NCBI GenBank assembly: GCA_000092065.1
Contig: CP000586.1
Length of the DNA: 64,000 nucleotides
Direction: 5' to 3' (one strand)
DNA from: Ostreococcus lucimarinus
Taxonomy: Eukaryota
Part shown: piece by piece, positions 11,364 to 25,296 of the stretch
Layout of the letters: each line of letters opens with the position of its first letter
Numbering within the stretch: the first letter of the stretch is position 1
Notes under the pieces: generated by a model
What the model was told of the DNA's origin: nothing
What the model saw: the letters and a program-made list of their open reading frames with translations, nothing else
Database searches by the model: none
Position numbers and translations under genes: made by a program

Positions 11364-12638
11364 ATGTCCCGCGCGCGCGGCGTCTGCGCCTTGGTCCTCA
11401 TCGACGACGGCGCCGCGACGACGCGCGACGCGGACGTGCCCGAGGAAATCATCCTCCAGCGCCTGCGCGCGTCGAGCGAGGACGACGACGGCGCGAGCGA
11501 CGACGACGGCGACGACGACGACGGGGTGCCGGGAATCCTCTCCCCCCCGTCCGCGCGCGACGTCGTCGTCATCGGACGCCAAAAGGGCGTCGTCGACCAC
11601 GCGATGGACTGCGCGAGCATTCCTCTGCTGCTCAGTCGCAAACACGCCGCGATGACGTGCGACGGCGCGGCGCATTACGTGCGAGATTTAGCGACGACGA
11701 ACGGGACGTTCGTGAACGGGTCGAGGATCGACGCCAAGGTGGACGTCGCGCTGAAAGACGGGGACGTCGTCGCGTTCGGAGGGCCGCGGTACGTGGCGCG
11801 GGATAGCGGTCGGTTGGCGAACCCGTTTCGGTATCGGTACGTGCGGTTGGAGCGCCCGGGGGTCGACGCGAGGAGCAAACGGCTGCGAGCGAGCCAAGAG
11901 AACGACGCGGCGAGAGAGGCGTTCGGGTCGCAGGGGGCGCAGTTGAGCCAGGTGTATCAGGCGGTGCAGGCGAGTCAGACGAGCGAGAGTTATGAGGAGT
12001 TGGATGATATGCTGAAAGCGCGGTTGAGGTCGATGTTCGATGGAGAGGTGGACTTCGCGCAGGCGTGCGCCAAACGGTACTTTGGAGTGGCGACGCCGAC
12101 GGCGTCGCCGAGTAAGTCTACGGGTAAGCGTAAGAGCGTGGGTCAAGCGACTCGAAGTGCGCCGAGTTCACAAGATCCTGATGCGGACGATGGGCTGCGA
12201 GATAAGCTCTCCGAGCTCGTTCTCGAACGCTTGCGAGACAGACCGGCGTGGGTGGAATCTGAACTCAAGTGCGCGATATGCCGCGAATGGATGACACTTC
12301 CCCACGCCTTGATCACTTGTGGACACCTCTTCTGCCTCGAATGCATCGACAATTCGTTTTGTCACGCCTACACGTGCCCGTGCTGCCGTTCGCGTCCGAA
12401 CGCGCCGCGTGAGCTCCTCTTCACGCCGTCGGCGCTCGCCGACAGACTCCTCGACAAATACGTCATACCAACCCTCACCACCAAGGAACTCCTCGACCGT
12501 AAGGCGAAGGAACAGAACGCCGTTCAAGCTCGCAAGAAACGAGTGAAACGCGCCGCTGAGGTCTCCATGCGCGTCGGCACTCTCTCCACGGTCTCCGTGC
12601 AAGAGACGCAGTCGGCGACGCCGCGAAGCGACGCGTGA
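11364..12638 (+). CDS. FHA + RING-finger E3 ubiquitin ligase (RNF8/CHFR-like)
   Basis: N-terminal FHA (VVVIGRQKG..HAAMTCDG..LATTNGTFVNGSRI). C-terminal C3HC4 RING (CAICREWMTLPHALITCGHLFCLECI..CPCC). Confidence 0.75.
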   Translation: MSRARGVCALVLIDDGAATTRDADVPEEIILQRLRASSEDDDGASDDDGDDDDGVPGILSPPSARDVVVIGRQKGVVDHAMDCASIPLLLSRKHAAMTCDGAAHYVRDLATTNGTFVNGSRIDAKVDVALKDGDVVAFGGPRYVARDSGRLANPFRYRYVRLERPGVDARSKRLRASQENDAAREAFGSQGAQLSQVYQAVQASQTSESYEELDDMLKARLRSMFDGEVDFAQACAKRYFGVATPTASPSKSTGKRKSVGQATRSAPSSQDPDADDGLRDKLSELVLERLRDRPAWVESELKCAICREWMTLPHALITCGHLFCLECIDNSFCHAYTCPCCRSRPNAPRELLFTPSALADRLLDKYVIPTLTTKELLDRKAKEQNAVQARKKRVKRAAEVSMRVGTLSTVSVQETQSATPRSDA

Positions 12639-12850
12639 CGCCGCGTGCCCTCGTCGCCCAGGTCCCGCGCCCGAAAACGTCCGCGGTGGACCGCTTAGCC
12701 TTCTTCAATTCGTGTTCACATTCTTTCATCACCGGCGCGGCGCTCGCGGGTTTGTAATTAATCTTCGCACGTGCGCTCGCCGCAGAGGTCCCAAGAGTCT
12801 TGGCCAAGACCCTACTACCATCGTGACCTCGCGACCTCGCGGTCGGCCAT

Positions 12851-12882
12851 CCCTCTCTCTTTGACGCAAGAACGAAGACAAC
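12851..12882 (+). promoter_or_regulatory. pyrimidine-rich (TOP-like) 5' leader of RPS23
   Basis: ccctctctctttgacgcaagaacgaagacaac lies immediately before the ATG. Pyrimidine tracts like this are typical of ribosomal-protein mRNA leaders. Confidence 0.4.
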
Positions 12883-13896
12883 ATGGGGTGCGTGCGACAT
12901 CGCGATCGAACGACGCGACGAAACAAATCACCGACCATCGCGCGCGCGCGTGCGCACCGACGCGGCGTAGCGCGCGCGTCCGCCGCTCCGCCGCGCGGTC
13001 GATCGACGCAACCCCAGCGGGCGATCGATCGCGCGGTGGAAACGCGCGATGTGCGCGTCGACGACGGCGTTCGAGCGGTCATGGACGCGATGCTCGATGC
13101 GTGAAGATTCCACGCATCGTTGAATCGCGTCGCGATGCGCGTCGAGGGTTCGCGCGCGCGTCCGTGGGCGCGCGAACGCTGGGCGCGCGCGTTTAGGGCT
13201 TCGCGCTCGCGCGTGGGGGCTTCGCGCGCGCGCGCGACGCCCGGCGCGGTGATTGGGACGCAGTGACCGCACGATCGATTAAAACACCACGCGATCGCCT
13301 CGTTTCGTTCGGCGTGCGCGATGACTGACGGTGCGCGTCGACGCTTTCGCACGTTTGCAGTAAGACTCGTGGTTTAGGGGCTGGCCGTAAGTTGCGCATT
13401 CATCGCCGCGAACAGCGATGGGCCGACAAGGATTTCAACAAGGCGAACTTGGGTTCTGAGTGGAAGAAGCCGTTCGCTGGTTGCTCGCACGCCAAGGGTA
13501 TCGTCTTGGAAAAGATTGGCATCGAAGCGAAGCAGCCGAACTCTGCTATTCGTAAGTGCGTGCGAGTGCAGCTCATCAAAAATGGCAAGAAGATTGCGGC
13601 CTTCGTCCCGCGCGATGGTTGCTTGAACTTCACCGATGAAAACGATGAAGTCCTCATCGCTGGTTTCGGTCGTAAGGGTCACGCTGTTGGTGATATTCCG
13701 GGTGTGCGATTCAAGGTTGTCAAGGTTGCCGGTGTGTCGCTCAACGCGCTCTTCAGAGAGAAGAAGGTACGTCGTCGCTTTGGCTCTCGCGCGCTCAACG
13801 GTTGTTCGCCGCTCGTCTTTTTCGAAACGGAGATGTATGACCAAGATACTGACGCAAAGATTTTTTTACGTGTAACAGGAAAAGCCGCGTTCTTAA
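12883..13896 (+). CDS. RPS23: 40S ribosomal protein S23 (uS12); three exons 12883..12887 (ATGGG), 13361..13766, 13879..13896
   Basis: Exon 2 encodes [53 protein letters not shown]. The N-terminal 'MG' is supplied by ATGGG followed by a GTGCGT donor at 12888. The first acceptor is ..cgtttgcAG at 13359-13360. Exon 2 ends at a GTACGT donor at 13767. Exon 3 begins after a poly-T..taacAG acceptor at 13877-13878 and encodes EKPRS*. The spliced product is 142 aa, as expected for S23. Confidence 0.85.
12888..13360 (+). other. RPS23 intron 1 (approx. 473 nt, GTGCGT...CAG)
   Basis: Bounded by the micro-exon ATGGG and in-phase exon 2. Contains a perfect 8-bp hairpin (gatgcgtg/cacgcatc) at approx. 13096..13118. 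Confidence 0.75.
13767..13878 (+). other. RPS23 intron 2 (112 nt, GTACGT...T-rich..AG)
   Basis: Removing it joins ..FREKK to EKPRS-stop, restoring the conserved S23 C-terminus. Confidence 0.75.
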
Positions 13897-14061
13897 ACGT
13901 TTGGACGTCTTTTGACGATGGAATGGATACGAACACGACAATAGTTAGACTCGCGACCGAGGGAAGCTTTGTTAATGCAAGTCAAGTCTTGGTTGGTTAT
14001 GAAAAATTCGCTAATGCTATGAAAGACTCGTCTTGGCGTGGACCAAGCGTCGACGTCATCT

Positions 14062-15138
14062 CTACGCCTCCATCGCGTCGTCAGCACTGTCGAGAGCAGT
14101 GCTGACGTGCACCATGAGCACCTCGCGGTGCTTGTCGACGACGACGACGAGCGATTCTGGAGGAGGGTCCACGTAAAGCCCTGGCAAGTACGCCTCGTAC
14201 GCGGGCATGAAACGATCGACAAAGTCTTTCACCTGTGAATCGTCCAGTCCCCCGTTCGCCTTTCTCTCGGCTTCGAGTCTCCAGTCGTACACCCACGCCG
14301 GGTCGTCCACCTTGAAGATGATCCACCACGCGACGTTATCTGGTCCCCAAAGCGCCGCCTTGTATTCCTTCAATCGCTCGTTAACGACCACTAAATCGGG
14401 ATTAATCGCACGCGCACGATCGGATTCGATAGGTTCGAACCCGAGCATCCATCCTTCCAAGAGCACGACGTCGAGAGGCGCCGATACACTCTCCCACTCG
14501 CTCTGCGGTTTGCGATCGCCCCTCCCGTCTCGAGCGAGCTTATCGTATCTCGGCGCCAGAAACTTTGACGTCTCCCCGTCCGAATCGTTGATTCGCGCTA
14601 AAGATTGAAGAGATCTCGATCCGAGCGCTAAATCATGCGTTCCCGCGTTCCCTCTGTACCGCAACATCGCGTTTCCGGGGTTTGCCTCGCCCAGCGCCGC
14701 CTGGTCCTCGTACGCGAGATAAAAGTCATCGATCGACAGCGTCACCGCCGTCACGTTCCCCGACTCATCCGCCGCCGAATCATCCAAAAACTTCTTCGGC
14801 GTCGCCTTTATCATGTCCACTATCGTCCTCGTCAGCGTCGTCTTCCCGCATCCCTGCGGCGCGCTCACGCCGACCACCATCGGCTTCGGCGTTCGCCCCT
14901 CCCTCGTCGTCCCCGCCTTTCGCCTGTGCATCCTCAGCCGCTGCACCACCTCCTCGTACACCGGCACGTAATATCGATACACCCTGTTCCTCGCCGCCTC
15001 CTCCGCCGTCTCCGCGTCCTCGCTCGCGCTCAGCTCGCGCGCGTCTCTCGCGAGCGCGCGAAACAGTCCCAGTCCCACCTCGCGCACGTGCGCGCGCCAC
15101 GCGTCGTCGCTCGCGTCGCTCGCGTCGTCGCCCGCCAT
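14062..15138 (-). CDS. GLYK: D-glycerate 3-kinase (plant/algal GLYK family)
   Basis: Colinear match to plant GLYK ([83 protein letters not shown]). The ORF-track start at 15237 is a GTG; the first ATG is at 15138. Confidence 0.75.
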
Positions 15139-22482: not shown

Positions 22483-23811
22483 ATGGCGGTGAGAGACGGT
22501 GATGACGCGTCGTGGGACGTCGCGAGATCGAGCGCGAAGACTGACGAGACGATGGGATGGAACGAACGAACGCGCAGGGCGCCCCCGCCGCAGCCGCAAC
22601 AAAACGGAAACTGGAAGGACACGCTCGCGTTGCCGCCTCGAGATGAGCGGTATCGCACGGAGGATGTCACGGCGACGAAAGGAAATGAGTTTGAGGATTA
22701 TTTTCTCAAGAGAGAGCTCCTGATGGGGATCTTTGAAAAGGGTTTTGAGAGACCTTCGCCGATTCAGGAGGAGTCGATTCCCATCGCGCTCACGGGACGA
22801 GACATTTTGGCTCGGGCAAAGAATGGGACGGGGAAGACGGCGGCGTTTACTATTCCCATCCTCGAGAAGGTTGATACCAGTAAGAATATCATTCAAGCGG
22901 TCATCTTGGTGCCGACGCGCGAGTTGGCGCTGCAAACGAGTCAAGTCGCAAAGGAACTCGGAAAGCATTTGGGGGTCGCCGTCATGGTTACCACAGGAGG
23001 TACTTCTTTGAAGGATGATATCATGCGTTTGCACCAGCCGGTGCACATCGTCGTCGCGACCCCTGGTCGTCTCGTCGATTTGGCGAGTAAGAGCGTGGCT
23101 AAATTGGGCCAAGCTACGATGCTCGCCATGGATGAGGCCGATAAGCTCCTTTCACCCGAATTCCAACCCGTCATCGCCCAAGTGATCAACTTCATGGCGA
23201 AGAACCGACAAATATTGTTGTACTCCGCCACTTTCCCGGTCACGGTGAAGGACTTCAAGGACAAGTATTTGCGTAAGCCTTACGTTATCAATCTCATGGA
23301 AGAGCTCACGCTGAAGGGTATCACCCAATACTACGCCTTCGTCGAAGAAAAGCAAAAGGTGCACTGCTTGAACACCCTCTTCAGCAAACTTCAAATCAAC
23401 CAATCCATCATTTTCTGTAACAGCGTCACTCGCGTAGAGTTGCTCGCTAGGAAAATCACCGAACTTGGATATTCTTGCTTCTACATTCACGCCAAGATGA
23501 TTCAGGCGCACCGCAACCGCGTCTTCCACGACTTCCGCAACGGCGCTTGCCGCAACTTGGTGTCGTCGGATCTCTTCACTCGCGGTATCGATATTCAATC
23601 CGTCAACGTCGTCATCAACTTCGACTTCCCGAAGAATTCTGAGACGTACTTGCACAGAGTCGGTCGATCCGGCCGTTTCGGTCACCTGGGCATCGCCGTG
23701 AATCTTATTACTTACGACGATCGCATGAATTTGTTCCGCATCGAACAAGAACTCGGAACGGAGATTCAACAAATCCCTTCCCAGATCGATCCATCAAAAT
23801 ACTGCCGATAA
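22483..23811 (+). CDS. DDX6: DEAD-box ATP-dependent RNA helicase DDX6/Dhh1
   Basis: Near-identical blocks to human DDX6 ([93 protein letters not shown]). Confidence 0.9.
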
Positions 23812-23940
23812 TTTCATAACACGACGAATCATTCGTGCAAATGATTAGGCAGATAACAACTGCTTCGATAGGTTAGCTTAATAATGGTGAGTGGCGAATG
23901 ATGAACGCTCGCGCGAGGGCGCGGCGTCTTATCGTACGTG

Positions 23941-23998
23941 GGTTTCCTTCTGGGACGACACAGTTTTTTATGGTGCGTTCCATCTCACGAAGGAAACC
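23941..23998. other. 10-bp perfect inverted repeat (ggtttccttc ... gaaggaaacc) hairpin in AT-richer convergent intergenic region
   Basis: Stem arms flank a 38-nt loop. It lies 130 nt downstream of the DDX6 stop. Its role is unknown (3'UTR structure or small RNA). Confidence 0.3.
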
Positions 23999-24460
23999 GA
24001 CGTTGTAGCATAAACGCAAAGTGGCGATGGAGAACCAGACGGGTTTGTTCTCGGAAATACACAAAATACCTCGCGTCGCGTCTCGCGCGTGGGGGCACAA
24101 AACGAAAAAGACGGCGCTGTCTCGCTCTGAGACTGCGCCGGCACGAATGGATTGAACCATCTCTGTGTCTCATCGAGACGTCGCGGAGTCAATCCAAACA
24201 AGCGAAGATATTTTCTCGCTCCATGATACGCCAAGGATAATTACTTGGCGACGTTCGTCGACGAGCGCCTCGCGTTCGTCGCGCACTCAAGATGCGCCGC
24301 CCCCGTGGCGTCGTACCCACTTTCACGCCTCTTCGTCTGTACGGACATCTTTCTGAGGTTACATGGCAGCCTTTGGCTTAGCCTTTACATACATACACAG
24401 CTAGTGCGCACTCGAATAGACGCGAATAACATCGCGGAATGATTTGTAAGCGACGTTATA

Positions 24461-24498
24461 TACTACAATGACTCTACCATACTACAATGACTCTACTT
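24461..24498. repeat. tandem duplication (approx. 19-nt unit tactacaatgactctac) spanning the stop codon of the Myb-like gene
   Basis: tactacaatgactctac-cat-actacaatgactctac. The TAG stop of the minus-strand ORF lies inside the second copy. Confidence 0.7.
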
Positions 24499-25296
24499 GT
24501 TCCGCCCGGCGAAAATCGCTTCGCCCGACGGAGTCAGACGCCACGAATCATCTCGCAGCAAACCTCTCGGAATGATGATATGTCGGTACGCGGCCGAACA
24601 TTGATAACCGACGCGCCCGGGAATGTAAGACGCGAACAATCCCCACTTGTCGCCGCAGCCGTACTGTTTCGCCACCTCGACGAACCGCTCGATTTCGCCT
24701 TCATCCCAGTCTCCGTTGCGCTGCTCTTCTCCGCCAGTGTGCCGGTAAAAGTACGCGTTGGGATTCTTATACAGCATTCGCCTCGCGTGATCTCGAGCTT
24801 GTTCGCCCTTTCCGGGCCTGCGGTCTCCCGAGCCACCACCGTTTAGCTCCCAAGCCTTGTTCGCATTCTCCGCGATGCCGAGTCGGATTCGTTCTGTTTC
24901 CTCCACCCAACCGTGGAACCCTCCGACCATTTTCGGGCCAGGTTCGAGTCCATGCATCGCGCAGTACTCGTCGCACGTCAAGTGGCACTCCAAAGCCTCG
25001 TCGATTTCTCCCTTGGGCTTATCATCTTCGCCAATTTCCACCCATCGCCCCTTCGAAGACTCGCCTCGCATTCTTGCGCTTCGTCGCGTCGGCTCCGCCG
25101 GCGTCTCCTCCTTCTTCTCTCGTCTCTTTCGCTTCGAGTCCTTCGCCTCGCCCGCGGATTTCTCTAGCGCATCTTTCGATTCGCGCACTTTCAGCGACGC
25201 CAACAATTCGTTGTTTCGTCGCACGCGCGCCTGTTTCGTTCGTCGACGCGCTTCGTCAGTCTGTCCGCGCGACGACTTTGAATTCAAATCATTCAA
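24493..25296 (-). CDS. SANT/Myb-like domain protein with K/R/E-rich N-terminal region; start codon unresolved
   Basis: Myb-like domain (RRMLYKNPNAYFYRH..WDEGEIERFVEVAKQYGCGDKWGLFASYIPGRVGYQCSAAYRHII). The ORF-track 'M' is a TTG preceded seven codons upstream by an in-frame TGA. The first ATG is at 25071. Confidence 0.4.
   Translation of the reverse strand: MNDLNSKSSRGQTDEARRRTKQARVRRNNELLASLKVRESKDALEKSAGEAKDSKRKRREKKEETPAEPTRRSARMRGESSKGRWVEIGEDDKPKGEIDEALECHLTCDEYCAMHGLEPGPKMVGGFHGWVEETERIRLGIAENANKAWELNGGGSGDRRPGKGEQARDHARRMLYKNPNAYFYRHTGGEEQRNGDWDEGEIERFVEVAKQYGCGDKWGLFASYIPGRVGYQCSAAYRHIIIPRGLLRDDSWRLTPSGEAIFAGRNK

What the first reader, a model, noticed from the sequence alone, without database searches (positions are those of the whole stretch)
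12851..13896. RPS23 with a 5-nt coding first exon (ATGGG), a 473-nt first intron and an 18-nt last exon
The conserved MGK and EKPRS ends of S23 are only recovered by splicing ATGGG|GTGCGT...CAG|T and ..AAG|GTACGT...AACAG|GAAAAG. The ORF track alone gives an N- and C-terminally wrong protein. The structure shows the genome uses canonical GT-AG introns with GTGCGT/GTACGT/GTGAGT donors. The intron also contains a perfect 8-bp hairpin (approx. 13096..13118). This may be incidental, or it may be a small-RNA or regulatory element, as often seen in r-protein introns.
Basis: seen in the sequence. Interest (0 to 1): 0.55.

Follow-up and report, generated by a model that had tools for sequence, protein, structure and literature searches.

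The report
Known RPS23 gene; conserved intron motif
This is the ordinary, already annotated gene for ribosomal protein S23 of the tiny green alga Ostreococcus lucimarinus. The proposed splicing is correct and the hairpin is incidental, but the first intron carries a conserved telomere-like motif that may be a regulatory element.

Summary
The gene model is correct. Exon 1 is 12883-12887 (ATGGG), intron 1 is 12888-13360 (473 nt), exon 2 is 13361-13766, intron 2 is 13767-13878 (112 nt), and exon 3 is 13879-13896. The spliced 142-aa protein matches eukaryotic uS12/eS23 end to end. It is identical to GenBank ABO96502.1 (O. lucimarinus CCE9901) and to the O. tauri protein. Six poly(A)+ transcript contigs, 100% identical to the window, join exactly these exons, so the model is already known.

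The hairpin is real but has 9 bp (13095-13103/13111-13119). A hairpin at least that long appears in 29% of shuffled introns, and related lineages do not keep it. No snoRNA, tRNA or Rfam family was found.

New points:
- The intron right after ATGG(G) is present in all 18 related lineages examined, at 369-567 nt (465-488 nt in Ostreococcus). Its sequence is otherwise unalignable.
- Its only strongly conserved element is TAGGGYT, which resembles the telomere repeat (13192-13201). It lies in sense orientation about 300-345 nt into the intron in 11 of 12 Ostreococcus and Micromonas-like lineages, with a near-variant in the twelfth.
- A second TTTAGGG in exon 2 (13373-13379) is held by rare codons in Ostreococcus and Bathycoccus.
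- Intron 2 is a gain within Ostreococcus.

A regulatory role for the motif is inferred, not shown.

The parts
12853..12882 (+). Transcription start and 5'UTR. The mRNA begins CUCUCUCUUUGACGC..., a pyrimidine-rich start resembling a 5'TOP.
   Evidence: The 5' ends of transcript contigs L003-L005 and L007 are three or four G's (one or two other bases first in L007 and L006) followed by genome sequence from C12853; L006 starts at C12855. I read the leading G's as template-switch or cap remnants, which is an inference. The CC(G)CCTCTC...GACGC block is conserved in orthologous promoters.
12883..12887 (+). Coding part of exon 1: ATGGG (Met plus the first two bases of Gly2).
   Evidence: ATGGG|GT is conserved in all Ostreococcus and Micromonas-like lineages; Bathycoccus has ATGG|GT.
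12888..13360 (+). Intron 1: 473 nt, GTGCGT...TTTGCAG, 70% G+C.
   Evidence: The junction is proven by transcript contigs. Orthologous introns are 465-488 nt in Ostreococcus, 420-440 in Micromonas-like lineages and 425-525 in Bathycoccus-like lineages. Sequence identity between lineages is only 45-55%.
12987..13040 (+). Strongest local hairpin in intron 1: 19-nt arms, 89% complementary. Not conserved.
   Evidence: -43.6 kcal/mol. No counterpart was seen in the other lineages.
13095..13119 (+).
   Evidence: 29% of shuffles reach a stem of at least 9 bp. It is not retained in orthologues.
13148..13177 (+). A 10-bp perfect hairpin (GTTCGCGCGC...GCGCGCGAAC) made of CG-rich low-complexity sequence.
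13192..13201 (+). Conserved element resembling the telomere repeat: TTTAGGGCTT (consensus TTYTAGGGYTY), G-rich strand on the sense strand, about 340 nt downstream of the transcription start.
   Evidence: These are the top k-mers in an unbiased conservation test (TTTAGGG in 8 of 18 introns against 0.09 expected; TAGGGCTT in 6 against 0.01). TAGGGYT lies forward at 297-345 nt from the 5' splice site in 11 of 12 Ostreococcus and Micromonas-like lineages. In the twelfth, L049, TAGGGCT lies at 98 and only the near-variant AAGGGTTT sits at about 313. Density is 2.6 per kb in intron 1 against 0.05 per kb in 41.6 kb of flanks. Only 3 TAGGGYT sites occur in the 64-kb window, and the other two lie inside long ORFs.
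13324..13329 (+). Putative branch site ACTGAC of intron 1, 36 nt from the 3' splice site.
   Evidence: CTGAC/CTGAT lies 32-49 nt from the 3' splice site in the 12 Ostreococcus and Micromonas-like orthologues. Branch use itself is inferred.
13361..13766 (+). Exon 2: last base of codon 2 through Lys137.
13371..13379 (+). Exonic copy resembling the telomere repeat: codons 6-8, GGT TTA GGG (TTTAGGG at 13373-13379), held by rare codons.
   Evidence: These codons are invariant in 7 Ostreococcus and 4 Bathycoccus-like lineages. TTA is 12 of 100 Leu codons, 11 of them at this site. GGG is 19 of 165 Gly codons, 11 of them at this site. The other codon-invariant positions are, from my reading of the list, nearly all common codons such as AAG, AAC, CAC, TTC and GGT. 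Micromonas-like lineages use CTC/CTT and GGA instead.
13767..13878 (+). Intron 2: 112 nt, GTACGT...GTAACAG, 49% G+C, phase 0 between Lys137 and Glu138. Restricted to some lineages.
   Evidence: The junction is proven by transcripts. The intron is present only in the window lineage (L023, L104-L111) and in the L008/L026 lineage. It is absent in O. tauri, L012, L016, L027 and all Micromonas-like and Bathycoccus-like loci.
13848..13853 (+). Putative branch site ACTGAC of intron 2.
13879..13896 (+). Coding part of exon 3: GAA AAG CCG CGT TCT TAA (EKPRS, stop).
13897..14006 (+). 3'UTR. Poly(A) is added after ...GGTTGGTTA (about 13999) or ...ATGAAA (about 14004).
   Evidence: Poly(A) tails are seen on L002, L003 and L004.

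Best explanation
The locus is the single-copy nuclear gene for cytosolic small-subunit ribosomal protein uS12/eS23 (RPS23) of Ostreococcus lucimarinus CCE9901.

**Shown:**
- The mRNA 5' end maps to a pyrimidine tract at about C12853.
- The mRNA is polyadenylated near 14000.
- The product is a canonical 142-aa uS12.

**Intron 1.** It is an old intron just after the start codon, shared by the Ostreococcus, Bathycoccus-like and Micromonas-like lineages sampled (all Mamiellales). Its sequence drifts at about the rate of the flanks: between two closely related lineages it differs by 11.7%, against 12.5% in intron 2 and 10.5% in the downstream flank. Even so, it stays about 2.5 times the species' mean intron length. 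It also keeps one short element, TTYTAGGGYTY, in sense orientation about 300-345 nt from the 5' splice site. This element resembles one unit of the organism's own telomere repeat, TTTAGGG. A second TTTAGGG, 181 nt downstream in exon 2, is kept by rare codons in Ostreococcus and Bathycoccus.

**Inferred mechanism.** These repeats are cis-regulatory sites downstream of the transcription start. They would be comparable to the 'telo boxes' in the 5'UTRs and first introns of plant ribosomal-protein genes, and would help set the high, growth-coupled expression of the gene. This is likely part of why the intron is retained in such a compact genome.

**Hairpin.** The 9-bp hairpin and the other stems are by-products of CG-rich, self-complementary intron sequence. 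They are not a small-RNA gene.
For: **Identity.**
- The protein matches uS12 chains over its full length (E = 5e-81).
- Pfam PF00164 is recorded for the product.
- The sequence is exactly ABO96502.1/XP_001418209.1, and the upstream neighbour is ABO96501.1.

**Splicing, start and poly(A).** Contigs L002-L007 are 100% identical to the exons, and where their ends are preserved they carry G-rich 5' ends and A tails.

**Intron 1 conservation.**
- Its position and length are conserved in 18 lineages.
- The mean O. lucimarinus intron is 187-188 bp (PMC2367439).
- Intron 1 is mostly neutral: L008 against L026 differs by 11.7% in intron 1, 12.5% in intron 2 and 10.5% downstream.

**The motif.**
- It was the top result of an unbiased k-mer test.
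- Its position and orientation are conserved.
- It is about 55-fold denser in the intron than in the flanks.
- It is rare in the window.
- The exonic copy is held by rare codons.

**Background from papers.**
- The Ostreococcus telomere repeat is TTTAGGG (PMC3318450; PMC2794166).
- Plant telo boxes are enriched in the 5'UTRs and first introns of ribosomal-protein genes (PMC3022908; PMC3212954).

**Hairpin.** The shuffle test and the lack of conservation are. No Rfam family, C/D snoRNA or tRNA was found.
Against: **Regulatory role.** It rests on conservation in one gene only. No other ribosomal-protein gene lies in the window, so enrichment across ribosomal-protein genes, the defining property of plant telo boxes, could not be tested.

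**Departures from the plant telo box.**
- The window copy (AAGCCCTAAA on the antisense strand) has one mismatch to the canonical AAACCCTA.
- The sites lie at about +340 and +520 from the transcription start, further downstream than the plant range of -60 to +180 (PMC2576244).
- The G-rich strand is the sense strand. From my own knowledge, plant descriptions usually give AAACCCTA on the sense strand.
- The strict sense orientation fits an RNA-level role equally well.
- TRB proteins, the best-known telo-box binders, are reported to have arisen in streptophytes (PMC12616469).

**Gaps in conservation.** Bathycoccus introns lack TAGGGYT.

**Intron structure.** Intron 1 folds more stably than shuffles (z about -4 here, mean about -2.1 in orthologues, against -0.55 in 20 control windows). 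Some selection on structure therefore cannot be excluded.
Confidence: 0.9

Rival explanations
1. The TTTAGGG/UAGGG elements act on the RNA rather than the DNA. For example, they could be binding sites for an hnRNP-like or other single-strand-specific protein that controls splicing efficiency, intron retention or translation of the RPS23 pre-mRNA or mRNA. Alternatively they could be decoy or alternative 3' splice sites (UUUAG|G) used for unproductive splicing.
For: Every copy is in sense orientation: 14 of 14 intronic TAGGGYT sites, plus the exonic copy in 11 lineages. The exonic copy stays in the mature mRNA. The motif contains YAG|G, which looks like an acceptor site. From my own knowledge, UAGGG is the classic hnRNP A1 site, and ribosomal-protein genes in several eukaryotes autoregulate through conserved intronic elements.
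Against: Conservation extends beyond YAG into GGG(Y)T, and in five lineages (L012, L016, L029, L039, L041) the match to the telomere repeat reaches 9-10 nt (TTTAGGGTT/TTTAGGGTTT). That is not needed for a splice site. By eye, no CTRAY branch motif lies in the roughly 50 nt upstream of the intronic copy. None of the six transcript contigs uses these sites. The copies largely descend from a common ancestor, so the orientation statistic rests on few independent events.
Confidence: 0.3
2. The hairpin at 13095-13119, or another part of intron 1, encodes a small RNA (snoRNA, miRNA-like) processed from the excised intron, as in many ribosomal-protein gene introns.
For: Intron 1 is unusually long and folds better than shuffles (z = -3.8 to -4.25). 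Local stems are stable. Ribosomal-protein introns often host snoRNAs in plants and animals (PMC3022908).
Against: - No Rfam family reaches threshold. The only weak hits are generic hairpin matches.
- There is no C box, D box and terminal stem combination in the window intron or conserved among orthologues.
- No conserved 7-8-mer other than the telomere-like motif and CG runs was found, so there is no conserved rRNA guide.
- The hairpin is absent from 17 orthologous introns and is not significant against shuffles.
- A 9-bp stem is far too short for a miRNA precursor.
Confidence: 0.03
3. Intron 1 is kept long and structured because its internal base pairing brings the 5' splice site and the branch point together. 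This would resemble the 'zipper' stems of long yeast ribosomal-protein introns. On this reading the conserved length reflects a splicing constraint rather than a regulatory one.
For: All 18 orthologous introns have negative folding z-scores, with a mean of about -2.1, against -0.55 for 20 control windows. Length is conserved while sequence is not. There is only one indel column against 57 substitutions between L008 and L026.
Against: Z-scores range down to about -0.2 (O. tauri, L054). The controls were mostly coding sequence. CG-rich low-complexity runs are self-complementary by composition. No helix could be followed between lineages because the introns do not align. This reading is not exclusive of the best explanation.
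Confidence: 0.15
4. The shared TAGGGYT is a chance or mutational-bias coincidence and has no function.
For: It is a short motif in a single gene family, and the lineages are related by descent.
Against: Expected occurrence is 0.01-0.1 lineages against 6-8 observed for the 7-8-mers. The motif is retained while the surrounding intron is saturated at 45-55% identity. It is 55-fold denser than in the flanks. Rare-codon retention of the exonic copy is independent evidence.
Confidence: 0.05

Closest known systems
Annotated RPS23 (uS12/eS23) genes of Ostreococcus lucimarinus CCE9901 (ABO96502.1 / XP_001418209.1) and O. tauri (CAL53462.1 / XP_003079816.1)
   Same: The protein sequence is identical. 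In O. tauri the gene span runs from the same ATGGG start to the stop (L001 3001-3897), so the same tiny first coding exon is already in the public annotation.
   Different: There is nothing different for O. lucimarinus. O. tauri lacks intron 2.
Start-codon-proximal first introns of highly expressed and ribosomal-protein genes, including the excess of introns in highly expressed O. lucimarinus genes (Lanier et al. 2008, PMC2367439)
   Same: The intron lies directly after the start codon of a ribosomal-protein gene in a very compact genome. It is longer than the genome average of 187-188 bp.
   Different: Here the position and the approximate length are traced across the Ostreococcus, Bathycoccus-like and Micromonas-like lineages sampled, and a specific conserved element inside the intron is identified.
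Plant telo box (AAACCCTA[A], an interstitial telomere motif) of ribosomal-protein and translation-factor genes (Gaspin et al. 2010, PMC3022908; Wang et al. 2011, PMC3212954), bound in Arabidopsis by TRB1 (PMC4924339)
   Same: It is one unit of the species' own telomere repeat. It lies downstream of the transcription start, in a first intron, in a ribosomal-protein gene. In L012 and L016 the motif is the exact reverse complement of AAACCCTAA.
   Different: - The window copy has one mismatch (AAGCCCTA).
- It lies further downstream, at +340 and +520.
- The G-rich strand is the sense strand.
- Enrichment across ribosomal-protein genes was not tested.
- Partner site II motifs are not clearly present.
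- TRB proteins are reported to have arisen in streptophytes.
- The literature retrieved treats the link between telo boxes and ribosomal-protein genes as a land-plant feature.
Intronic snoRNAs of ribosomal-protein genes
   Same: The host gene type and the location in an intron are the same.
   Different: No boxes, no conserved guide and no Rfam match were found.
5'TOP mRNAs of animals
   Same: The inferred mRNA 5' end is a C followed by 9 pyrimidines (CUCUCUCUUU) in a ribosomal-protein mRNA.
   Different: The start site is inferred from assembled contigs only. No evidence for translational control was obtained.

Membership tests
Ribosomal protein uS12 / eS23 (Pfam PF00164 Ribosom_S12_S23) | Full-length sequence similarity to eukaryotic uS12 seen in solved 80S ribosomes | tested here: met
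   Residues 1-142 align to 1-142 of 4v3p_SL, with E = 4.6e-81. In all, 141 PDB sequences match.
Ribosomal protein uS12 / eS23 (Pfam PF00164 Ribosom_S12_S23) | Pfam family hit on the product | tested here: met
   PF00164 is recorded for P0001 and for all orthologous gene calls.
Ribosomal protein uS12 / eS23 (Pfam PF00164 Ribosom_S12_S23) | Conserved decoding-centre loop KQPNSA (from my own knowledge, the hydroxylated Pro of eukaryotic RPS23 lies in this loop) | tested here: met
   PNSA begins at residue 61, within ...[11 protein letters not shown]....
Spliceosomal GT-AG introns | GT...AG boundaries with exon junctions present in mRNA | tested here: met
   The boundaries are GTGCGT...CAG and GTACGT...CAG. 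Both junctions are present in six transcript contigs at 100% identity.
Spliceosomal GT-AG introns | Branch-site motif (CTRAY) 20-50 nt upstream of the acceptor | tested here: met
   ACTGAC occurs at 13324-13329 and 13848-13853. The motif is conserved in 12 orthologues. Actual use as a branch site was not shown.
Box C/D snoRNA (intronic) | C box (RUGAUGA) and D box (CUGA) 50-160 nt apart, flanked by a terminal stem | tested here: not met
   There is no RTGATGA in the window intron and no candidate conserved among the 18 introns.
Box C/D or H/ACA snoRNA (intronic) | Conserved guide sequence, or a match to a described family | tested here: not met
   There are no Rfam hits at gathering threshold and only chance-level hairpin hits at E up to 10. 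No conserved k-mer was found apart from the telomere-like motif and CG runs. The H/ACA hairpin-hinge-hairpin-ACA layout was not searched explicitly.
miRNA-like precursor | Extended stem (at least about 20 bp) that is conserved | tested here: not met
   The stem is 9 bp, is reached in 29% of shuffles and is absent in orthologues.
Plant-type telo box of ribosomal-protein genes | Sequence AAACCCTA (at least 8 nt of the species' telomere repeat) | tested here: inconclusive
   The window has the exact 7-nt unit TTTAGGG twice (13192 and 13373). As an 8-mer, however, the intronic copy reads TAGGGCTT, which is one mismatch. The exact TAGGGTTT occurs in L012, L016 and L027. The Ostreococcus telomere repeat is TTTAGGG.
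Plant-type telo box of ribosomal-protein genes | Location close to the transcription start (about -60 to +180 in Arabidopsis and rice) | tested here: not met
   The sites lie at about +340 (intron) and +520 (exon 2) from C12853. The plant range is taken from PMC2576244.
Plant-type telo box of ribosomal-protein genes | Enrichment across the ribosomal-protein gene set, and association with site II (TGGGCY) or TEF boxes | not testable with these tools
   There is no other ribosomal-protein gene in the window, and no tool gave access to the rest of the genome. GCCCAAA-like elements are seen upstream in some lineages only.
Plant-type telo box of ribosomal-protein genes | Binding by a telomere-repeat-binding factor, with an effect on transcription | not testable with these tools
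   This needs an experiment.
Introner-type (transposon-derived) recent intron, considered for intron 2 | Many near-identical copies elsewhere in the genome | tested here: inconclusive
   There is no significant match of intron 2 elsewhere in the 64-kb window.
5'TOP mRNA | Cap-adjacent C followed by 4-15 pyrimidines | tested here: met
   The contig 5' ends read GGGG followed by CTCTCTCTTTGACGC. The start site is inferred from assembled contigs, not from cap mapping.

The most novel reading that the evidence does not exclude
The two sense-oriented TTTAGGG-type elements form a conserved regulatory module downstream of the promoter in Mamiellales ribosomal-protein genes. One lies in intron 1 at 13192-13201. 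The other lies in exon 2 at 13373-13379 and is held by rare codons. This would mean that coupling of interstitial telomere repeats to ribosomal-protein gene expression is not a land-plant innovation. It would date back to the common ancestor of green algae and plants, and would use a factor other than TRB proteins. Alternatively, the elements could be a strand-specific RNA element of a new kind.
Probability: 0.35. Interest if true: 0.5.

Novelty: already known. Interest (0 to 1): 0.22.

Why it matters
**As submitted.** The finding is a correct re-derivation of a gene model that public databases already hold. Its practical value is as a clean, transcript-verified example of Ostreococcus splice signals:
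- donors GTGCGT and GTACGT
- branch site ACTGAC about 30-36 nt from a YAG acceptor
- a 5-nt coding first exon that ORF-based callers always miss (metagenome annotations of this gene are truncated or read through the intron).

**What follow-up adds.**
- A candidate cis-element can be tested directly in O. tauri (transformable, to my knowledge). If general, it would move the origin of telo-box control of ribosomal-protein genes to before the split of chlorophytes and streptophytes.
- Intron 2 is a datable intron gain within the genus Ostreococcus.

Tried and rejected
- **Rfam.** A scan at gathering thresholds over the whole window gave nothing. A permissive scan of 12700-14050 gave only chance hairpin matches to unrelated miRNA and sRNA models.
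- **tRNA or tmRNA.** None found.
- **C/D snoRNA pattern scan of 18 orthologous introns.** No candidate in the window and none conserved.
- **Is intron 1 or intron 2 a repeated 'introner'?** blastn against the window gave only (CG)n low-complexity matches. This is inconclusive because only 64 kb is available.
- **Alignment of intron 1 across lineages to look for covariation in the hairpin.** The introns are 45-55% identical and effectively unalignable. By-eye hints of hairpins at similar offsets in O. tauri and L008 were dropped, because the systematic scan found no perfect stem of at least 7 bp at that offset in any orthologue.
- **Searching the window for other ribosomal-protein genes, to test whether the motif is general.** The four large gaps hold an HflX-like GTPase, a fructosamine-kinase-like gene, a Myb/SANT-like gene and an oxysterol-binding-like gene. 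These labels are from reading the translations by eye. None is a ribosomal-protein gene.
- **A second recurrent motif (TCGATGGACG) in Ostreococcus introns.** Its position is not conserved, GATGGACG is not enriched in the window, and the window intron has only a variant. It was left as a note.
- The same sequence under id P0001 worked.
- **Large protein-homology search.** It was not spent on fetching other ribosomal-protein genes, because Ostreococcus orthologues would not rank among the top hits of any query I could supply.
Full report
**1. The observation**

The sequence at 12851-13896 is as described.

| Feature | Coordinates | Notes |
|---|---|---|
| Exon 1, coding part | 12883-12887 | ATGGG |
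| Intron 1 | 12888-13360 | GTGCGT...TTTGCAG, 473 nt, 70% G+C |
| Exon 2 | 13361-13766 | |
| Intron 2 | 13767-13878 | GTACGT...GTAACAG, 112 nt, 49% G+C |
| Exon 3, coding part | 13879-13896 | GAAAAGCCGCGTTCTTAA |

- Joining the exons gives a 429-nt CDS and a 142-aa protein, [10 protein letters not shown]...REKKEKPRS.
- The mechanical ORF list shows only a 237-aa read-through ORF (13392-14105) with wrong ends.
- The hairpin exists but has 9 perfect pairs: 13095-13103 with 13111-13119, loop aagattc.

**2. Identity and source**

- The spliced protein aligns over its whole length (1-142 to 1-142) with wheat and other eukaryotic uS12/eS23 chains from solved ribosomes (E = 4.6e-81).
- An exact-sequence look-up finds it as ABO96502.1/XP_001418209.1 (O. 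lucimarinus CCE9901) and CAL53462.1/XP_003079816.1 (O. tauri), and as a complete ORF of an MMETSP transcript.
- The upstream ORF 11364-12638 is exactly ABO96501.1 of O. lucimarinus.
- The window is therefore O. lucimarinus CCE9901, and the gene model is already public.

**3. Transcript evidence**

Looking up the protein returned the O. tauri genomic locus (L001) and six short contigs in which the 429-nt CDS is uninterrupted (L002-L007).

- blastn shows these contigs are 100% identical to the window exons. They join 12887 to 13361 and 13766 to 13879.
- Five of them begin with three or four G's followed by CTCTCTCTTTGACGC, starting at C12853 (C12855 in L006). Three end in poly(A) after about 13999 or about 14004.
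- They are therefore mRNA-derived. They fix the transcription start, both junctions and the poly(A) site.
- I interpret the leading G's as template-switch remnants. That is an inference.
- The mRNA start is a C followed by nine pyrimidines, resembling a 5'TOP.

**4. The hairpin and small-RNA idea**

- 29% of 2000 dinucleotide-preserving shuffles of intron 1 contain a perfect hairpin of at least 9 bp.
- The intron holds stronger stems at 13148-13177 and 12987-13040.
- None of the 17 orthologous introns keeps a stem at the same offset.
- Rfam gives nothing at gathering thresholds, and only chance-level generic hairpin hits at E up to 10.
- There is no tRNA.
- There is no arrangement of C box, D box and terminal stem in the window or conserved among orthologues.
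- There is no conserved guide-like k-mer.
- The whole intron does fold better than shuffles (z = -3.8 and -4.25). All 18 orthologues have negative z-scores (mean about -2.1), against -0.55 ± 1.15 for 20 control windows.
- That excess may reflect CG-rich self-complementary runs, or weak selection for a compact intron fold. It does not single out the reported hairpin.

**5. Comparative anatomy**

Genomic loci were obtained for these groups. The genus labels rest on protein identity, G+C content and an exon-2 distance tree.

- O. tauri (L001)
- four further Ostreococcus lineages from metagenomes (L008/L026, L012, L016, L027)
- Micromonas-like lineages (L029, L039/L041, L049, L050, L028, L047)
- Bathycoccus-like lineages (L030, L032, L043, L046)
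- three more distant taxa (L053-L055)

The Ostreococcus loci fetched with wide flanks are syntenic: TPR gene, FHA/RING gene, RPS23, a convergent kinase-like gene and a CBM20 gene.

An intron directly after ATGGG is present in every lineage where the 5' region was recovered; in Bathycoccus and L055 it follows ATGG. Lengths are as follows.

| Group | Intron 1 length (nt) |
|---|---|
| Ostreococcus | 465-488 |
| L027 and Micromonas-like | 420-440 |
| Bathycoccus-like | 425-525 |
| More distant taxa (L054, L053) | 369 and 567 |

- The mean O. lucimarinus intron is 187-188 bp (PMC2367439).
- The introns are nonetheless only 45-55% identical between lineages.
- Between the close pair L008 and L026, intron 1 diverges like neutral sequence: 11.7%, against 12.5% for intron 2 and 10.5% for the downstream flank. 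There is only one indel column.

**6. What is conserved in intron 1**

I counted, for every 7- and 8-mer, the number of lineages whose intron contains it. Splice-signal regions were trimmed, and counts were compared with dinucleotide shuffles. Everything else near the top of the list is CG-rich low complexity. The top results are:

| k-mer | Lineages observed | Expected |
|---|---|---|
| TTTAGGG | 8 | 0.09 |
| TAGGGTT | 7 | 0.04 |
| TTTTAGGG | 7 | 0.03 |
| TAGGGCTT | 6 | 0.01 |

- TAGGGYT occurs in forward orientation 297-345 nt from the 5' splice site in 11 of the 12 Ostreococcus and Micromonas-like lineages. L049 has AAGGGTTT there and TAGGGCT at position 98. It never occurs in reverse.
- The consensus is TTYTAGGGYTY. 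In L012 and L016 it is the exact reverse complement of the plant telo box AAACCCTAA.
- Motif density is 2.63 per kb in intron 1, against 0.05 per kb (both strands) in 41.6 kb of flanking sequence from the same loci.
- The 64-kb window has only three TAGGGYT sites. The other two lie inside ORFs of 1830 and 1329 aa.
- The Ostreococcus telomere repeat is TTTAGGG (PMC3318450). O. lucimarinus POT1 binds GGGTTTAGGGT (PMC2794166).

**7. A second copy in exon 2**

- TTTAGGG occurs four times in the window (expected 1.4). Two of these lie 181 nt apart in RPS23, at 13192 and 13373.
- The exonic copy is codons 6-8, GGT TTA GGG.
- These codons are invariant in all 7 Ostreococcus and 4 Bathycoccus-like lineages. 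TTA is only 12 of 100 Leu codons in these exons, 11 of them at this site. GGG is 19 of 165 Gly codons, 11 of them at this site.
- The other 30 codon-invariant positions are, by my reading of the list, nearly all common codons such as AAG, AAC, CAC, TTC and GGT.
- Micromonas-like lineages use GGT CTC/CTT GGA here. Several of them carry two intronic copies instead.
- This is constraint at synonymous sites on the nucleotide motif.

**8. Interpretation of the motif**

Shown: a short element resembling the telomere repeat is under purifying selection inside an otherwise drifting intron, and again at synonymous sites of exon 2. It is always on the sense strand.

Inferred: it is a cis-regulatory site.

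The closest known analogue is the plant telo box. That element is enriched in the 5'UTRs and first two introns of ribosomal-protein and translation genes (PMC3022908; PMC3212954). In Arabidopsis it is bound by TRB1 (PMC4924339).

The differences are real:
- one mismatch in the window copy
- positions of about +340 and +520 rather than -60 to +180
- the G-rich strand on the sense strand
- no clear site II partner
- TRB proteins reported only from streptophytes

I could not test the defining property, enrichment across ribosomal-protein genes, because the window has no other such gene. The strict orientation leaves an RNA-level role as a serious rival, whether as a protein-binding site or as a UUUAG|G decoy acceptor. 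However, none of the six transcript contigs uses those AGs, and conservation extends beyond YAG.

**9. Intron 2**

- It is present in the window lineage (112 nt; 108 nt in L023) and in L008/L026 (128 nt). In both it sits at the same phase-0 site, AAG|G, and starts with the same GTACG(T/C)CGT.
- It is absent from O. tauri, L012, L016, L027 and every Micromonas-like, Bathycoccus-like and more distant locus.
- Neighbour-gene identities place the window lineage, O. tauri and L008 in one unresolved group, with L016 and L012 outside it.
- The intron is therefore a gain within Ostreococcus. Either it arose in the ancestor of the two carrier lineages, or it arose one node deeper and was then lost in O. 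tauri.

**10. Verdict**

The finding is correct and well observed, but it describes an ordinary gene that is already annotated and supported by transcripts. The hairpin is incidental. The only lead of wider interest is the telomere-repeat-like element conserved in intron 1 and exon 2. At present this is a single-gene observation with an inferred function.

Noticed in passing
window 13371-13379 (and the same codons in L001, L008, L012, L016, L026, L027, L030, L032, L043, L046): Codons 6-8 of RPS23, GGT TTA GGG, spell the telomere repeat TTTAGGG. They are invariant in Ostreococcus and Bathycoccus even though TTA and GGG are otherwise almost unused in this gene. Micromonas-like lineages recode them.
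   Followed up: yes
window 13784-13940, compared with L023 (JGI 3300048437 Ga0494426_0033953) and L104: L023 matches the window almost perfectly over intron 1 (1 difference in 410), over exon 2 (0 in 406) and from about 13941 onward. It differs at about 29% of positions across intron 2 and carries further changes in exon 3 and the first 45 nt or so of the 3'UTR. L104 has 6 substitutions in intron 2 and almost none elsewhere. This looks like a recombinant or gene-converted haplotype, or a local divergence hotspot. An assembly chimera is not excluded.
   Followed up: partly
window 13767-13878; L008/L026 intron 2: Intron 2 of RPS23 is present only in two Ostreococcus lineages. It is absent from O. 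tauri, three other Ostreococcus lineages and the Micromonas-like and Bathycoccus-like loci. This makes it a gain within the genus, at an AAG|G site.
   Followed up: yes
window 12425-12887 (contig L002, Logan SRR28368968): One poly(A)+ contig runs from the coding region of the upstream FHA/RING (CHFR-like) gene through the 244-nt intergenic spacer into RPS23, and is spliced normally. This is either read-through transcription or an assembly joining overlapping transcripts.
   Followed up: partly
window 13999-14064: The RPS23 poly(A) site lies only about 56-63 nt from the stop codon (14062-14064) of the convergent downstream kinase-like gene, so the two 3'UTRs probably overlap.
   Followed up: no
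window 12806-12825; L001 2930-2945: About 35-65 nt upstream of the transcription start, the window has CCAAGACCCTAC and O. tauri has CCAAGCCCTAC, a telo-box-like core in the opposite orientation. Several other lineages have GCCCAAA (resembling a site II motif) in this region.
   Followed up: partly
introns of L001 (74-88, 174-190), L008 (248-271), L016 (116-132); window 12992-13008 and 13078-13088 (variants): A second recurrent motif, (G/T)TCGATGGACG(CG), is shared by several Ostreococcus intron-1 sequences at non-conserved positions. GATGGACG is not enriched in the window as a whole.
   Followed up: partly
protein cluster (P0002-P0015): Prokaryote-style gene calls on metagenome contigs systematically mis-annotate this gene. 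The products start inside intron 1 or at Leu13, or read through intron 2. Dozens to hundreds of such contigs carry these wrong 'S23e' proteins.
   Followed up: no
window 23900-24500: From my reading of the six-frame translation only, the stretch between the ORFs ending at 23811 and starting at 24875 looks AT-richer than the rest of the window. It has no long ORF apart from a Myb/SANT-like reading frame on the minus strand. No composition profile was run.
   Followed up: no
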